Below, piece by piece: positions 992 to 4,881 of a stretch of 12,747 nt of DNA. How positions within the stretch are numbered: position 1 is the first letter of the stretch; the number at the start of each line of letters is the position of its first letter. This DNA is from Escherichia coli. GTDB taxonomy: Bacteria; Pseudomonadota; Gammaproteobacteria; Enterobacterales; Enterobacteriaceae. Location: the NCBI RefSeq assembly GCF_003334255.1, contig NZ_QOWU01000081.1, one strand, 5' to 3'. The notes below the pieces were generated by a model, which made no database searches, was not told the origin of the DNA, and worked only from the letters and a program-made list of their open reading frames with translations. The position numbers and the translations under genes are program-made.

Positions 992-1165
992 TTATTCCCG
1001 AACTACCTTGAAACCGAGTCTTTCCAAGTATTCAATGAATGCCTCAACAGATAACACTACATGATCATCAGGAATTAACGCTGTGTAGGTAATACCCCCA
1101 TTCTCAACGCGCACAGCATAGAGGCCATCTTCACTAAAAATTTCACGTAATTCTTCGATTTTCAT
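992..1165 (-). CDS. Small hypothetical protein (57 aa from the ATG at 1163-1165; the ORF extends to 1213 as 73 aa)
   Basis: The internal ATG is preceded on the minus strand by AAGGA with 8-nt spacing. Product MKIEELREIFSEDGLYAVRVENGGITYTALIPDDHVVLSVEAFIEYLERLGFKVVRE; no family recognised with confidence. Confidence 0.45.
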   Translation of the reverse strand: MKIEELREIFSEDGLYAVRVENGGITYTALIPDDHVVLSVEAFIEYLERLGFKVVRE

Positions 1166-1297
1166 CAACAGAATCCTTCCAGATAAATAGCACTCCCCCT
1201 GTTCGGGGTCCATCCCTCTTCTCCCTGCGCGCTACTTAAGTATTTTTGATTCTATTCTGGCACCGTCCAAAACTTCAAACACGTTGAAAATAAAAAC

Positions 1298-1318
1298 AAA
1301 AAACCCGCCGAAGCGGGT
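1298..1318 (-). terminator. Rho-independent terminator ending the 216-aa/HTH-peptidase operon
   Basis: Plus-strand AAAAAACCCGCCGAAGCGGGT; on the minus strand this is a CCCGC/GCGGG stem with a 4-nt loop followed by a U6 tract, 5 nt after the stop of the 1323-2426 gene. Confidence 0.65.
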
Positions 1319-1322
1319 ATAC

Positions 1323-2426
1323 TCAAACAATCTGGAAAATATTTCTTGGATTTGTAATAGGTCTGTTGATGGAGAACAACTCACGAATTAAATCTTGGCT
1401 CAAGCCAGTTTTCATAAGAATTCTTAGCCAGGTTGCATCATCCAGCATTTCAATCGCCTCGGCCAGCATGCCGGGTTCTTCAGGGCGCAAAAGTTCATCA
1501 CCAGGTTCAACTCTCGTATACCCTCTGGAATTAAGATGCATATAGCCAGTTCTTGCCTGTTCCTGGGTCAATAAGCCTAATGCGCTGGCTCGATAAATAC
1601 ACATTTTAAGGCTGATTTTCCATCTAAGTTTAAATTCAACCAGAGCATTCCAGTCGAATTGCTTACCTCGTATTCGTGGAAATTCTTTAATGAAAGATAA
1701 CCTGGGAACTAATAAGGCGCTCGAAAAGTGATCGGCTTGTGATTCCGTAAGTTTATCACCTGTCGTTATGCCCTCATGCATTACTAAATGCCCTAATTCA
1801 TGACCTAAATCAGAGCGAAATCTACATATGCTTTTTTTAACATTGTTCCTGATGATAACAGGCCTGTTATTGTGAACAGTAAAAGCATCAACACGATCAT
1901 CGACTCCCGTAACATGCGCAACGATTACCCCTAAACTCTCCGCCAATTTAACCATTGATGATATAGGGCCAAGACCTAAATTCCAGGCACGGCGACAATC
2001 TTCTGCCACTCGCTCAATATCATTCGGAGTAAGTAATTCAGCCCCTGGGTGCTCCGGTATGTTAACGTCAGGAAATTCGATTTCACCTTCAACAGCAGAA
2101 ATTATAATATTAAGAATCTCAGCCCTGGCCAATACACTATTAGTCAGCGTTTGAGTCCTGGACTTCTTACTCCGAAAATGGCAGACATCACTTTCCAGAG
2201 CGTATTTTCGTTCAGTAAAAAGAAAACTGGACTTAATCATAAGCGCTGAAGATATTAACTCAAGACATTGCTCCGATGGCCTGCACCCCTTCTCCAGTTT
2301 GCTAACGAATTGCTTTGTCTTGCCAATTTTTTCGGCTAACTCTTCACAAGAAAGCCCAACAGCCATTCTCGCTAGTTTGAGCTTATCACCCCGATACTCA
2401 GTGAAGTTATTCACCTGATGTTCCAT
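1323..2426 (-). CDS. Fused XRE-family HTH / ImmA-IrrE (COG2856) zinc-metallopeptidase, about 367 aa
   Basis: N-terminal HTH (LKLARMAVGLSCEELAEKIGKTKQFVSKLEKG); zinc-peptidase motif HELGH followed by LVMHEG at about residues 210-220; downstream conserved ...ESQADHFSSALLVP... typical of COG2856. The ORF track starts at GTG 2429; the ATG at 2424-2426 is the more likely start. Overlaps the upstream gene by 20 nt. Confidence 0.85.
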   Translation of the reverse strand: MEHQVNNFTEYRGDKLKLARMAVGLSCEELAEKIGKTKQFVSKLEKGCRPSEQCLELISSALMIKSSFLFTERKYALESDVCHFRSKKSRTQTLTNSVLARAEILNIIISAVEGEIEFPDVNIPEHPGAELLTPNDIERVAEDCRRAWNLGLGPISSMVKLAESLGVIVAHVTGVDDRVDAFTVHNNRPVIIRNNVKKSICRFRSDLGHELGHLVMHEGITTGDKLTESQADHFSSALLVPRLSFIKEFPRIRGKQFDWNALVEFKLRWKISLKMCIYRASALGLLTQEQARTGYMHLNSRGYTRVEPGDELLRPEEPGMLAEAIEMLDDATWLRILMKTGLSQDLIRELFSINRPITNPRNIFQIV

Positions 2427-3057
2427 CACTGCTCACATCCAAATCTTTATCCTTCGTACGCCGACGAAGAGGCACCTTATTAATCTCCGCTTCGTCAGGG
2501 AGTGTGTTATAATCAAGAGGCATAAGCGGCATCGATGCTGTAGATTGATGAGAAACTATACTAATCTGAGCACCATAAGTATTAAATCCAACAAGAGCTA
2601 CCTCCCAACGAGGCAGTGTGGACTCTAATTCACCATCGCCCTCTTCGGATAAAAAAGGCTCAGCTATGACTCGCCATGTAATATCTTGCTCAGCCTCAAC
2701 ATCACCAAACAATGAGAGCTGCTCATACTCTACTTTATTTCGACGCAGACGATGTTTCTTTTTGGGGTTATTAATGCAATCTTTGGTAAATTGTAGCGGA
2801 ACTTTATTTAAAGCAACTACATAGTCCAACCCCTTGGAAATCATCTCAAGGCCAGGAATTGCATCTTCATTTTGAATAAGATGATTTCTGACCCAATCAT
2901 AAGCCCTTACACCTTCAGACCAGTTGCTGTCTAATGCGTGCTTATGATAGTACAGCTGCTCAAGTACGTTAGCGATCTCCGCCAACAAGTGGCGAACATA
3001 GTTTTCAGCAAGATAAGGTTGAAATTCCCAACAAGGAGCTAACTGATTTTCATTCAT
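2407..3057 (-). CDS. Uncharacterised 216-aa protein with acidic C-terminal tail; first gene of a two-gene operon with the HTH-peptidase
   Basis: ORF track; ATG 3055-3057, TGA 2407-2409 overlapping the downstream start. No Shine-Dalgarno sequence evident. No family recognised. Product begins MNENQLAPCWEFQPYLAENYVRHLLAEIANVLEQLYYHKH. Confidence 0.7.
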   Translation of the reverse strand: MNENQLAPCWEFQPYLAENYVRHLLAEIANVLEQLYYHKHALDSNWSEGVRAYDWVRNHLIQNEDAIPGLEMISKGLDYVVALNKVPLQFTKDCINNPKKKHRLRRNKVEYEQLSLFGDVEAEQDITWRVIAEPFLSEEGDGELESTLPRWEVALVGFNTYGAQISIVSHQSTASMPLMPLDYNTLPDEAEINKVPLRRRTKDKDLDVSSDGTSGE

Positions 3058-3092
3058 TTCAAGTTTCGCTTTTTTTAGAATTCGTAAACCAC

Positions 3093-3121
3093 ATATTTTC
3101 GCATTTTTCTATTTTTGTCAA
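3093..3121 (-). promoter_or_regulatory. Candidate sigma70 promoter for the 216-aa/HTH-peptidase operon
   Basis: On the minus strand: TTGACA (3116-3121), 17-nt spacer, AAATAT (3093-3098), about 35 nt upstream of ATG 3057. The -10 element is weak. Confidence 0.35.
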
Positions 3122-3133
3122 CCAGACTAATGC

Positions 3134-3378: not shown

Positions 3379-3435
3379 AGCCTGCTTCCCCTTGCCTTTC
3401 GGCACGTAAGAGGCTAACCTACATTTGTGAGACAT
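3223..3435 (-). CDS. mok: Mok-like reading frame (in-frame N-terminal extension of hok, 70 aa)
   Basis: Same-frame ORF starting 19 codons upstream of the hok ATG, as in the annotated mokC/hokC arrangement. Confidence 0.55.
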   Translation of the reverse strand: MSHKCRLASYVPKGKGKQAMKQQKAMLIALIVICLTVIVTALVTRKDLCEVRIRTGQTEVAVFTAYEPEE

Positions 3436-3505
3436 AGATTGGGCCTCAGATTAATGTTAAGCGTCTTGCAGGACGCGAAATGTTAACTGGGGCTTTTCTC
3501 TATCT
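3436..3505 (+). ncRNA. sok: Putative Sok-like antisense RNA, opposite the hok mRNA leader and mok start region; coordinates approximate
   Basis: Position inferred from hok/sok locus architecture only; I could not define the promoter or 3' end with confidence. A GCGTC/GACGC hairpin lies at about 3460-3475. Confidence 0.25.
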
Positions 3506-3554
3506 GCCTTTCAGTGTTCATGCCTGAGACAGATAGCCTCAAGCACCCGCAGCC

Positions 3555-3583
3555 ATTCTACTTAACTCACGTCACCTCGCCAA
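3555..3583 (-). promoter_or_regulatory. Candidate promoter of the hok/mok mRNA
   Basis: On the minus strand: TTGGCG (3578-3583), 17-nt spacer, TAGAAT (3555-3560). This gives a leader of about 110 nt before the mok start, consistent with hok-family mRNAs. Confidence 0.4.
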
Positions 3584-3615
3584 TATGAAATCAATCAGAA
3601 AGGTGATCCATAAAA

Positions 3616-4302
3616 TCACTCCTTCTCTTCTTTTCCGTAGTGGAGTTGGCCAATTTTGATAAGAGGGCGTCCCTGAGATTTGCGGTGTAGATTGGTATCG
3701 CGCAGAGAATACACACAGCCACAATATTCCTGCTGATAGAATTTTTCGCGCTTGCTGATTTCAATCATACGGGACGAGCCGCCCTGCTTGCGCCAGTTAT
3801 AATCCCAGTACACCATACCCGGATAATGCGCAACAGCTCGCCGCCCACACTCGTTAACCTGCTGCATATTTTTCCAGCGTGAAATGCCCAGTGAACTGCT
3901 GATCACACTGAAACCATTTTCAGCAGCGTACAACGCTGTCCGCTCAAAACGCATGTCAAAACACATGGTACAACGGATCCCCCTCTCAGGCTCCCATTCC
4001 ATTCCTTTGGCACGTTCAAACCAGTTGTCGGTGTCGTAATCAGCATCGATAAACGGCACGCCGTGTTGTTCAGCAAAGCGAATATTTTCATCCTTACGAA
4101 TTAAATACTCTTTCTGAGGATGAATGTTCGGGTTGTAGAAAAAGATGGTGTAGTCGATTCCCGAGGCCTGAAGCGCCTCCATCACTTCACCGGAACATGG
4201 AGCACAGCAAGAGTGCAGTAGTAGTTTGTTTGCCCCGTTTGGGAGCTCCAATTTAGGCCGTTTGAAATCAGCAATAGTCATAAATATTTTTATTGGGGTC
4301 AT
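3616..4302 (-). CDS. queH: DUF208-family protein, putative epoxyqueuosine reductase QueH-like (228 aa)
   Basis: N-terminal [14 protein letters not shown] motif, YNPNIHP segment and a C-terminal Cys pair (EYCGCVY) fit my recollection of the DUF208/QueH family. Start could also be the ATG at 4279-4281. No clear Shine-Dalgarno sequence. Confidence 0.65.
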
Positions 4303-4455
4303 GAAAATAGCACAGAGTGTAGCATCAGAGCAGGGCTATCGGGAATATATGTCTAAATCTGGTAATATCTGGTTTTGACGCAAAGCGGACAACCACGCTG
4401 GCTCTACCCTGCGCCATGAAAATGTCAATTCACATCTGAACTAATGCTCTTTAAT

Positions 4456-4881
4456 CTAGTAACGTCTAAAATACCTAACATTTCCTTGATAAAATGCCAG
4501 TACACGCTGCATAGCTTCGCTCTTCCGGCACTCGCGACAGATTATGTTCAGGCGCCTGTCGTAGCGGCGTATTTCGCCGTCTGGTAACGACCAGATAAGG
4601 TCCGGATCAACCACTGCAGGTTTCTTCACCTTTGCCCTTGAGAGTTTTTTGCGAGCATTTTGCCAGTCCTTACGCGCCTGTTCAGACGGGAATAACCCGT
4701 AACCAGAGTTGTATACATCGCCACTGGCAACCAGCTCTCTGGCGAGAACACTCATCAGATATCTTGTCGCACCTGTCTTGGCTTCCAGTTGCCGCAACGT
4801 CTCGCGACCGCTCAGACGTACAAGTTCAACAACCTGCCCTTTAATTTTTTCCCGCTCTTCTTGTGTAAATACTTTTGCCAT
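4456..4881 (-). CDS. Hypothetical prophage protein, 141 aa (basic C-terminus, possible HTH-like segment); likely distal gene of the replication operon
   Basis: ORF track frame. The track start at 4896 is a TTG; the ATG at 4879-4881 is preceded by GGAGG at 5-nt spacing and lies 15 nt after the stop of the upstream gene. Confidence 0.6.
   Translation of the reverse strand: MAKVFTQEEREKIKGQVVELVRLSGRETLRQLEAKTGATRYLMSVLARELVASGDVYNSGYGLFPSEQARKDWQNARKKLSRAKVKKPAVVDPDLIWSLPDGEIRRYDRRLNIICRECRKSEAMQRVLAFYQGNVRYFRRY

What the first reader, a model, noticed from the sequence alone, without database searches (positions are those of the whole stretch)
992..4881. Cargo hotspot between the replication module and the left-edge genes
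In Rac-like prophages as I recall them, the genes after the DnaC-like loader lead quickly towards the late region. Here a block of accessory genes intervenes, all on the minus strand: a 141-aa hypothetical, QueH-like, hok/sok, the 216-aa/HTH-peptidase cassette and a 57-aa protein, with several internal promoters and terminators. This mirrors the nin-region position that is a known hotspot for defence and other cargo genes in lambdoid phages.
Basis: inference. Interest (0 to 1): 0.45.

Follow-up and report, generated by a model that had tools for sequence, protein, structure and literature searches.

The report
Prophage cargo slots flanking hok/sok
The stretch is the "nin-like" early region of a Rac/Qin-type E. 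coli prophage, where two small swap-in slots on either side of a conserved hok/sok killer gene here hold a known-type RosmerTA anti-phage toxin-antitoxin pair and a QueH tRNA-modification gene, which is real but ordinary phage mosaicism.

Summary
The window is the early region of a lambdoid prophage integrated beside ompW.

The idea of a cargo hotspot holds, but the region is not one accessory block.
- **Conserved anchors:** DUF968 plus a 90-aa gene (1-977), hok/sok (3133-3568) and DUF977 (4477-4891).
- **Slot A (978-3132):** holds a chimeric Rem-like ORF and an 1835-bp, low-GC RosmerTA cassette. The cassette sits exactly at the hok terminator and is bracketed by a perfect 20-nt duplicate of it.
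- **Slot B (3569-4476):** holds QueH.

In 21 comparator loci, slot A took nine states: this RosmerTA, a second RosmerTA subtype, a type II RM system, ParDE, a HigBA-like pair, a split HTH/ImmA pair, rem alone, an unknown ORF, or nothing. Slot B held QueH, relBE, a PDC-S15 candidate, the Paa adhesin or arrays of small ORFs.

| Segment | Complete E. coli genomes (of 5426) |
|---|---|
| Left anchor | 4362 |
| QueH | 947 |
| This RosmerTA | 237 |
| Whole window | 13 |

Counts of promoter-like and terminator-like sites do not exceed shuffled sequence. The 141-aa DUF977 gene is backbone, not cargo. Every cargo gene belongs to a known family, so interest is low to moderate.

The parts
1..658 (-). 5' part of the DUF968 (YdfU-like) gene; left conserved anchor
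   Evidence: Annotated DUF968 in L001. Aligned at 83-100% identity in all comparator loci. The anchor segment 300-990 is found at 80% coverage or more in 4362 of 5426 genomes.
660..932 (-). 90-aa hypothetical gene (phrog_1212); part of the left anchor
   Evidence: phrog_1212 E=1.9e-36. Present beside DUF968 in every comparator locus. Homology to relatives ends at about 953-990.
992..1165 (-). 57-aa Rem-derived chimeric ORF, the start of slot A
   Evidence: Only the first 25 aa match Rem of PPompW, K-12 Qin and HannyBb. PGAP annotates 1091-1165 as a truncated pseudogene. GC 0.40.
1299..1318 (-). Intrinsic terminator hairpin, copy 1 of a 20-nt direct repeat; left end of the RosmerTA cassette
   Evidence: Perfect repeat AAAAACCCGCCGAAGCGGGT with 3134-3153, spacing 1835. 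Terminator-like hit. The empty site in L008 has a single copy. Window 1214-1318 matches about 2700 further genomes, including K-12 Qin, and the match stops at 1318.
1323..2429 (-). RmrA: Xre-type HTH fused to an M78 (ImmA/IrrE) zinc peptidase; predicted antitoxin/regulator
   Evidence: PADLOC RmrA E=6.2e-105. Pfam HTH_3 and Peptidase_M78. HELGH motif at residue 210. 29% identity to the verified RmrA of E. coli OLC-716.
2407..3057 (-). RmrT-type 216-aa protein; predicted toxin/effector, soluble
3093..3121 (-). Candidate promoter of the RosmerTA cassette: perfect -35 TTGACA and a weak -10
   Evidence: Read from the sequence. It does not pass the consensus scan. Inference only.
3134..3153 (-). 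hok terminator, copy 2 of the 20-nt repeat; right end of the RosmerTA cassette and start of the hok/sok anchor
   Evidence: Homology with relatives that lack RosmerTA resumes at 3133-3135.
3223..3378 (-). hokD toxin gene (type I TA)
   Evidence: Annotated HokD WP_000813254. phrog_251 E=2.8e-33.
3373..3548 (-). hok mRNA leader / sok antisense region
   Evidence: Rfam RF01794, 120.5 bits, E=1.3e-27, full-length model. A promoter-like site lies just upstream at 3583-3555.
3616..4302 (-). QueH (epoxyqueuosine reductase family); cargo of slot B (3569-4476)
   Evidence: Pfam PF02677 E=1.2e-65. PDB 7lc5 E=7.8e-22 with the Cys motifs aligned. The segment is in 947 of 5426 genomes. Other genes replace it in L005-L013, L015, L017, L018 and L020-L022.
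4456..4881 (-). DUF977 (PHROG 'Ren-like') gene; right conserved anchor, not cargo
   Evidence: phrog_142 E=1.7e-46. Homology resumes at 4477 in L005 and L006, and at 4364 in L007. A DUF977 gene is present in 19 of the 21 comparator loci.
4897..6435 (-). DUF1627 + DnaC-like loader; an exchangeable replication sub-module bordering the region
   Evidence: NCBIfam PRK12377 E=2.4e-152. Absent or replaced in L005, L007, L012, L016, L017 and L020; other loaders are present in L018 and L022.

Best explanation
Window 1-4900 is the nin-equivalent part of the rightward early operon of a Rac/Qin-type lambdoid prophage inserted beside ompW.

**Layout.** Three conserved pieces act as recombination anchors: DUF968 with a 90-aa gene, the hok/sok module, and DUF977. 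Between them lie two slots where unrelated genes replace one another in different phages.

**Slot A.** It holds a Rem-derived ORF and a self-contained, low-GC, 1835-bp cassette encoding a RosmerTA-type pair. The upstream gene is a 216-aa RmrT effector. Its end overlaps the start of RmrA, an HTH-M78 zinc-peptidase fusion. The cassette sits exactly after the hok terminator and ends in a second copy of that terminator. It is therefore insulated from read-through on both sides and presumably uses its own promoter.

**Slot B.** It holds QueH.

**Inferred function.** In the lysogen, RmrA keeps RmrT in check, and infection by another phage releases RmrT to stop growth (abortive infection). hok/sok stabilises the prophage or adds exclusion. 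QueH completes queuosine in host tRNA without the cobalamin that host QueG needs.

**Shown versus inferred.** Shown here: gene identities by profile match, the breakpoints, the repeat, the composition and the population frequencies. Inferred: expression, toxicity, anti-phage activity and QueH activity.
For: - **Context:** the prophage map with ompW, int/xis, recE-like, racR, O-like/DnaC-like, DUF968-RusA-Q and late genes.
- **Breakpoints** shared across relatives lie at about 977, 1318/1319, 3132/3133, 3568/3569 and 4476/4477.
- **Slot A** takes nine states across the 21 comparator loci L002-L022. These include an NgoMIV-type REase with a Dcm MTase, a second RosmerTA subtype in phage Tritos (RmrA 32% and RmrT 25% identity), ParDE, a split HTH/ImmA pair, a HigBA-like pair, rem alone and an empty site.
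- **Slot B** holds QueH, relBE, PDC-S15, Paa/AdfO or arrays of small ORFs.
- **Frequencies:** anchor 4362, QueH 947, RosmerTA 237 and whole window 13 of 5426 genomes. Of the 237 RosmerTA carriers, 231 have it in this same context.
- **RosmerTA identity:** PADLOC RmrA 6e-105 and RmrT 4.6e-25, HTH + M78, HELGH motif.
- **Cassette insertion:** a perfect 20-nt repeat, a single-copy empty site in L008, and GC of 0.415 against 0.53-0.54 in the flanks.
- **Family behaviour:** RosmerTA is defined as a Zn-peptidase antitoxin with a toxin of unknown function, and the rmrA deletion could not be obtained (10.1101/2022.05.11.491447). The RosmerTA pair of phage Kita gave narrow anti-phage protection (PMC10440598).
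Against: - No expression or phenotype data exist for this locus.
- This RmrT has no detectable similarity to the experimentally verified RmrT, and this RmrA is only 29% identical to the verified one.
- The candidate promoter has only a weak -10 element.
- Promoter and terminator counts do not exceed shuffled sequence.
- The comparator loci were found by similarity to the window, so the slot-content frequencies are biased.
- hok loci overall are not enriched near DefenseFinder systems.
Confidence: 0.85

Rival explanations
1. The differences among relatives reflect decay of defective prophages through deletions and IS insertions, not exchange of cargo at defined slots.
For: Some loci are clearly degraded. 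There is an IS1 with a deletion next to hokD in L014, IS1203 and a truncated DUF1627 in L009, IS2 in L011, and IS5/IS3 inside the RosmerTA block in two genomes. K-12 Qin is a known remnant.
Against: Complete phage genomes from the phage collection (HannyBb, Tritos, PPompW) differ in the same two slots. The alternatives are unrelated intact genes rather than partial copies of one ancestor. The RosmerTA cassette is a clean insertion with a 20-nt repeat and foreign GC content.
Confidence: 0.08
2. The 216-aa/HTH-peptidase pair is not a toxin-antitoxin defence module. It is instead a phage regulatory switch of the ImmR/ImmA or CapH/CapP type: a repressor and protease that sense DNA damage and control a neighbouring gene or prophage induction.
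For: RmrA also matches capP (1.6e-14) and capH (1.5e-4) in PADLOC. It matches NCBIfam 'spr1629 family repressor/antitoxin' below the cut-off (155.9 against 335 bits). PHROG labels the family 'transcriptional regulator'. Ernits et al. propose ImmA-like cleavage of an HTH for Rosmer-type systems (PMC10440598).
Against: The strongest matches by far are full-length RmrA profiles (349 bits), and the partner matches an RmrT profile. The prophage has its own RacR/YdaS/YdaT switch elsewhere. The cassette is absent from most otherwise similar prophages, so it is not needed for their regulation. The two readings do not exclude each other, because RmrA may both repress and neutralise.
Confidence: 0.12
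3. The whole 992-4881 block is a conserved backbone of this phage group and not a hotspot.
For: DUF977 is conserved in 19 of the 21 comparator loci and hok/sok in 18. The block 600-3568 travels as one 98%-identical unit in 231 genomes.
Against: The whole window is found in only 13 of 5426 genomes, against 4362 for the anchor. Slot A takes nine states and slot B several more.
Confidence: 0.02
4. QueH here serves phage DNA modification (7-deazaguanine-type anti-restriction) rather than tRNA queuosine maturation.
For: Phages use the preQ0/archaeosine pathway to modify their DNA (PMC6884629).
Against: No DpdA/Tgt, FolE or QueC/D/E genes are annotated in the prophage. QueH acts on tRNA-bound epoxyqueuosine. 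Hutinet et al. found no Q-specific enzymes in the DNA-modifying viruses they analysed.
Confidence: 0.03

Closest known systems
nin region of phage lambda and its relatives (between P/ren and Q); 'morons' in the sense of Juhala et al. 2000 (from my own knowledge)
   Same: It occupies the same position, between the replication genes plus a Ren-like gene and RusA/Q. It has the same orientation as the early right operon. It has mosaic gene content with sharp breakpoints at gene boundaries. The RosmerTA cassette has the moron hallmarks of foreign GC content and its own terminator.
   Different: The backbone genes differ (DUF968, a 90-aa gene, DUF977 and hok/sok in place of ninA-I). Variation is concentrated in two short slots flanking hok/sok. 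A promoter for the cassette has not been demonstrated.
Defence hotspots of P2-like phages and P4-like satellites (Rousset et al. 2022, PMC9122126; Vassallo et al. 2022, PMC9519451)
   Same: Conserved flanking phage genes enclose a short locus whose contents differ between relatives and include known defence systems (RosmerTA, type II RM, the PDC-S15 candidate) and TA pairs.
   Different: The phage family is different (lambdoid Rac/Qin type). Many instances are empty or hold small ORFs of unknown function. Enrichment for defence was not established, and a survey found hok loci not enriched near defence systems.
RosmerTA (Millman et al. 2022; verified system from E. coli OLC-716)
   Same: It is a two-gene operon with a toxin of unknown function upstream of an HTH + Zn-peptidase (M78) antitoxin. 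Both proteins match PADLOC RosmerTA profiles.
   Different: RmrA is only 29% identical to the verified protein, and RmrT is unrelated to the verified RmrT. This RmrT is soluble, unlike the membrane-depolarising RmrT of phage Kita. This subtype has not been tested.
relBE-hokD-rem-ydfU arrangement of the K-12 Qin prophage
   Same: The backbone order is the same: ydfU, a 92-aa gene, rem, hokD. A TA pair sits next to hokD.
   Different: In Qin the TA pair (relBE) is in slot B and slot A holds only rem. In the window, slot B holds QueH and slot A holds RosmerTA.
QueH / DUF208 epoxyqueuosine reductase (Zallot et al. 2017; PDB 7lc5)
   Same: There is a full-length Pfam match, and the cysteine motifs align with the solved Thermotoga enzyme.
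   Different: It is encoded by a prophage in a host that already has QueG. Its activity has not been tested.

Membership tests
RosmerTA | Antitoxin RmrA carrying a Zn-peptidase (M78/ImmA-IrrE) domain, usually with an N-terminal Xre HTH | tested here: met
   Pfam HTH_3 (17-63) and Peptidase_M78 (177-282). PADLOC RmrA 349 bits covering 12-351. HELGH at residue 210.
RosmerTA | Adjacent co-oriented partner gene RmrT (toxin of variable, unknown type) in the same operon | tested here: met
   The 216-aa ORF overlaps the rmrA start by 23 nt. PADLOC RmrT PDLC03929 E=4.6e-25 covering 7-209.
RosmerTA | Sequence relationship to the experimentally verified pair (E. coli OLC-716) | tested here: inconclusive
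   RmrA is 29% identical, E=2e-35. RmrT shows no similarity. RmrT diversity is expected in this family.
RosmerTA | RmrT toxic, neutralised by RmrA; the system protects against phages | not testable with these tools
   Requires cloning and phage challenge. Literature on other members only.
[quoted passage not shown] | Hok-family peptide of about 50 aa | tested here: met
   phrog_251 E=2.8e-33. Identical to the protein annotated HokD, WP_000813254.
[quoted passage not shown] | Structured hok leader with the sok antisense region | tested here: met
   Rfam RF01794, full model 1-157, 120.5 bits against a gathering score of 59.
QueH (epoxyqueuosine reductase, PF02677) | Full-length domain with conserved cysteine motifs | tested here: met
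   PF02677 model positions 1-174 of 175, E=1.2e-65. The alignment to 7lc5 keeps the CCAP, RCxxC and CGC motifs.
QueH (epoxyqueuosine reductase, PF02677) | Reduces oQ-tRNA to Q-tRNA | not testable with these tools
   Needs complementation of a queG mutant and nucleoside LC-MS.
lambdoid nin-type region | Lies between the replication genes and the Q antiterminator, co-oriented with the early right operon | tested here: met
   Order in L001: YdaS, YdaT, O-like, DnaC-like, DUF1627, DUF977 ... DUF968, RusA, antitermination protein, all on one strand.
moron (autonomous insert in a phage operon) | Own terminator, own promoter, and base composition different from the neighbours | tested here: inconclusive
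   Terminator copies lie on both sides. GC is 0.415 against 0.53-0.54. The promoter is only a perfect -35 with a weak -10 and does not pass the scan.
phage defence hotspot (Rousset 2022 sense) | Conserved flanking genes with highly diverse content between them | tested here: met
   Nine slot A states and at least seven slot B states in 21 loci. Shared breakpoints.
phage defence hotspot (Rousset 2022 sense) | Content enriched in anti-phage systems | tested here: inconclusive
   Known or candidate defence systems appear in the window, L002, L005-L007, L017 and L018. Other loci hold TA pairs, unknown ORFs or nothing. The sample is biased and no statistical enrichment was computed. hok loci are not enriched near defence systems in a published survey.

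The most novel reading that the evidence does not exclude
The two slots flanking hok/sok in Rac/Qin-type prophages have an anchor present in about 80% of complete E. coli genomes, often in several copies. They may be a large, so far undescribed reservoir of TA and defence cassettes, comparable to the P2/P4 hotspots. The conserved hok terminator may act as the docking sequence at which cassettes are exchanged. Unknown occupants could be new defence genes, for example the 130-aa ORF in L020, the small-ORF arrays, or this untested RmrT family. Prophage QueH, present in 17% of genomes, could give lysogens cobalamin-independent queuosine maturation.
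Probability: 0.3. Interest if true: 0.5.

Novelty: new member of a known kind. Interest (0 to 1): 0.3.

Why it matters
The result gives exact, reusable boundaries for two variable slots in one of the commonest prophage types of E. coli: about 977 to 3133, and 3568 to 4477. It shows that defence and TA cassettes are swapped there, including two RosmerTA subtypes, a type II RM system, ParDE and a HigBA-like pair. This makes the locus easy to mine systematically for new anti-phage genes. It also identifies an untested RosmerTA subtype with a soluble toxin of unknown activity. Finally, it records that a queuosine-specific enzyme, QueH, is common prophage cargo. None of this overturns current understanding; it extends the known hotspot and moron picture to the Rac/Qin group.

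Tried and rejected
- **RmrT mechanism.**
  - There was no Pfam hit and no NCBIfam hit.
  - A profile search of 1.8 billion representatives found only about 48 uncharacterised clusters.
  - The AlphaFold model was good (pLDDT 80.6). Foldseek on PDB found nothing and AFDB50 returned only uncharacterised proteins.
  - The residues conserved in the family (D43, P98, E110, R129) do not form an obvious PD-(D/E)xK motif. I therefore do not claim a nuclease.
- **Identity to the verified RosmerTA.** Rejected: 29% identity for RmrA and none for RmrT.
- **PADLOC on the other genes of the block.** The 90-aa gene, the Rem-like ORF, hok, QueH and DUF977 gave no hits. DUF1627 gave only marginal CARF/Csa3 hits (E about 5e-4), which I judged to be noise from its winged-helix region.
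- **Literature.** I searched for a prior description of this hotspot and of prophage QueH. Nothing specific turned up in the held library. One hit for 'QueH' was an author surname.
- **Rem-like ORF as an intact rem allele.** Rejected, because only the first 25 residues match Rem.

Full report
**Where the window comes from.** The 12.7-kb window matches E. coli chromosomes at 99.4-99.5% identity over its full length. In strain S1-KEN-03-A it lies inside a lambdoid prophage integrated beside ompW.

The gene order, read along the minus-strand early operon, is YdaS (Cro-like), YdaT (cII-like), an O-like HTH protein, a DnaC-like ATPase, DUF1627, DUF977, QueH, hokD, a 216-aa protein, an HTH-peptidase protein, a rem fragment, a 90-aa protein, DUF968, RusA, and the antitermination protein. 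The late genes follow. On the other side lie racR, DicF, dicB, a recE-like exonuclease, xis and int. The flagged region is therefore the positional equivalent of lambda's nin region.

**Checking the observation.**
- The 141-aa protein is DUF977 (PHROG 'Ren-like', E=1.7e-46).
- QueH matches Pfam PF02677 over its full length (E=1.2e-65) and the solved QueH structure 7lc5.
- hokD is accompanied by a full-length match to the Rfam hok-leader/sok model (120.5 bits against a gathering score of 59).
- The 368-aa protein has HTH_3 and Peptidase_M78 domains and a HELGH motif at residue 210.
- The 57-aa ORF (992-1165) shares only its first 25 residues with Rem, and NCBI annotates it as a truncated pseudogene.

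The claim of 'several internal promoters and terminators' does not stand statistically. There are 6 promoter-like sites against 7.2 +/- 2.5 in shuffles, and 4 terminator-like sites against 4.9 +/- 2.7.

**What the cassette is.** PADLOC profiles identify the 368-aa protein as RmrA (E=6.2e-105, nearly full length) and the 216-aa protein as RmrT (E=4.6e-25). These are the two components of RosmerTA. Millman et al. define RosmerTA as a Zn-peptidase antitoxin with a toxin of unknown function, and they could not obtain the rmrA deletion. A RosmerTA pair from Gordonia phage Kita gave narrow anti-phage protection.

**Anatomy of the region.** BLAST comparison of the window with seven relatives gives the same breakpoints repeatedly: about 977, 1318/1319, 3132/3133, 3568/3569 and 4476/4477.

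The RosmerTA cassette is a clean insertion. A perfect 20-nt repeat, AAAAACCCGCCGAAGCGGGT, occurs at 1299-1318 and 3134-3153, 1835 nt apart. This sequence is the intrinsic terminator hairpin downstream of hok. A relative that has rem but no RosmerTA (PPompW, L008) has a single copy, joined to exactly the outer flanks of the window's two copies. Window 1214-1318 matches about 2700 further genomes, including K-12 Qin, and the match stops at 1318.

The cassette has a GC content of 0.415 (GC3 0.35-0.38), against 0.53-0.54 for the hok and DUF968 flanks. A perfect -35 hexamer with a weak -10 lies upstream of rmrT. This is suggestive only.

**Synteny.** I examined 21 other loci. Nine were chosen from the best matches or as known references. 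Twelve were taken at even steps down the ranking of anchor matches.

| Locus feature | States seen (loci) |
|---|---|
| Slot A, between the 90-aa gene and hok | This RosmerTA with the rem fragment (L005, L006, L017, L018) |
| | A second RosmerTA subtype in phage Tritos, with RmrA 32% and RmrT 25% identical |
| | An NgoMIV-type restriction enzyme with a cytosine methyltransferase, which also replaces the hok coding sequence |
| | ParDE |
| | A split HTH and ImmA/IrrE pair |
| | An HTH with a RelE/ParE-family toxin |
| | rem alone or a remnant |
| | A 130-aa unknown ORF |
| | Nothing |
| Slot B, between hok and DUF977 | QueH (L002, L003, L004, L016, L019) |
| | relBE in K-12 Qin |
| | A PDC-S15 candidate defence gene on the other strand |
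| | The Paa/AdfO adhesin |
| | DUF551 or ORF6N genes, or arrays of 4-10 small ORFs |

DUF977 is present in 19 of the 21 loci and hok/sok in 18. The neighbouring DUF1627 and DnaC-like pair is itself exchangeable with other replication modules.

**Frequencies among 5426 complete E. coli genomes.**

| Segment | Genomes with at least 80% coverage |
|---|---|
| Left anchor (300-990) | 4362 (9056 places in all) |
| QueH segment | 947 |
| RosmerTA segment | 237 |
| RosmerTA in the DUF968...hokD context | 231 |
| Whole window | 13 |

**Interpretation.** The region is a genuine cargo-exchange zone at the nin position, but it is better described as two short slots separated by a conserved hok/sok module. 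DUF977 and the DUF968/90-aa pair form the outer anchors.

The likely mechanism of exchange is recombination at conserved boundary sequences. For slot A, that sequence is the hok terminator itself.

Functionally, I infer three things:
- RosmerTA acts as a prophage-borne abortive-infection module.
- hok/sok acts as a stabiliser or excluder.
- QueH acts as a cobalamin-independent finisher of tRNA queuosine.

None of these activities was tested here.

Calling the locus a defence hotspot is only partly justified. Defence or TA pairs are frequent, but so are empty sites and unknown small ORFs. A recent survey found hok loci enriched in prophages but not enriched near DefenseFinder systems (12% against 9.4% for randomised positions).

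**Comparison and novelty.** The closest precedents are the lambda nin region and moron concept, the P2/P4 defence hotspots (PMC9122126, PMC9519451), and the relBE-hokD-rem-ydfU arrangement of Qin. All cargo genes fall in known families. I found no paper in the held library that describes this particular pair of slots or prophage-borne QueH.

Hutinet et al. reported no QueA, QueG or QueH homologs in the viruses they analysed. Here QueH is found in 17% of genomes as prophage cargo, and at 95% identity in the phage record HannyBb (host E. coli, source 'bird poop'), where it is annotated as hypothetical.

I rate the finding as a new member of a known kind, with low to moderate interest.

Noticed in passing
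window 3616-4302 (-): QueH, a queuosine-specific tRNA enzyme, is common prophage cargo: 947 of 5426 complete E. coli genomes. It also occurs at 95% identity in the phage record HannyBb, annotated 'hypothetical'. A 2019 survey reported no QueA/QueG/QueH homologs in the viruses it analysed (PMC6884629). E. coli already has cobalamin-dependent QueG, so a cobalamin-independent copy may matter physiologically.
   Followed up: partly
window 9327-9773 (-): A 148-aa, very low-GC (0.38) ORF on the opposite strand to its neighbours has a strongly hydrophobic segment around residues 41-61. It has no Pfam, PADLOC or NCBIfam match; only phrog_6315 (unknown function) matches. It sits between DUF1391 and DicF, where relatives carry other genes (ydfB/ydfC or other hypotheticals). 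This is probably a third variable slot.
   Followed up: partly
window 1299-1318 and 3134-3153: A perfect 20-nt direct repeat of the hok terminator hairpin brackets the 1835-bp RosmerTA cassette. The empty site in PPompW (L008) has one copy. The repeat would allow precise loss of the cassette and suggests the terminator is the recombination site.
   Followed up: yes
window 10238-10289 (+) and 10287-10509 (+): There is a DicF sRNA match (62 bits against a gathering score of 48). An adjacent STnc100-like match falls below its gathering score (36.8 against 47). Both lie upstream of dicB.
   Followed up: no
NZ_CP145707.1 2060954-2077283 (hit H1): One otherwise identical prophage carries a group II intron (ltrA reverse transcriptase/maturase) inserted within the window-equivalent region, adding about 3.6 kb.
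   Followed up: no
NZ_CP069459.1 and NZ_AP045810.1 (hits H235, H236); L017 6142-6579: The RosmerTA block is interrupted by IS5 or IS3 elements in two genomes. In strain 09-02E the rmrT gene is annotated shorter (145 aa). This suggests occasional inactivation of the toxin side.
   Followed up: no
L010 6222-6693, L013 7980-8451, L017 1-78: A relB/relE-family pair sits directly beside the repressor gene in several relatives. This points to yet another cargo position in the immunity region of this phage group.
   Followed up: no
window 4897-6435 (-): The DUF1627 + DnaC-like pair is missing or replaced in several relatives. Alternatives are a single 'replisome organizer' or a DnaT-like protein with P. 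DUF977 stays in place, so the replication module is mosaic as well.
   Followed up: partly
L007 (phage Tritos) 6925-8259 (+): A 444-aa gene in slot B of phage Tritos matches the PADLOC candidate defence family PDC-S15 (E=1.2e-98). It is annotated only as hypothetical in the record.
   Followed up: partly
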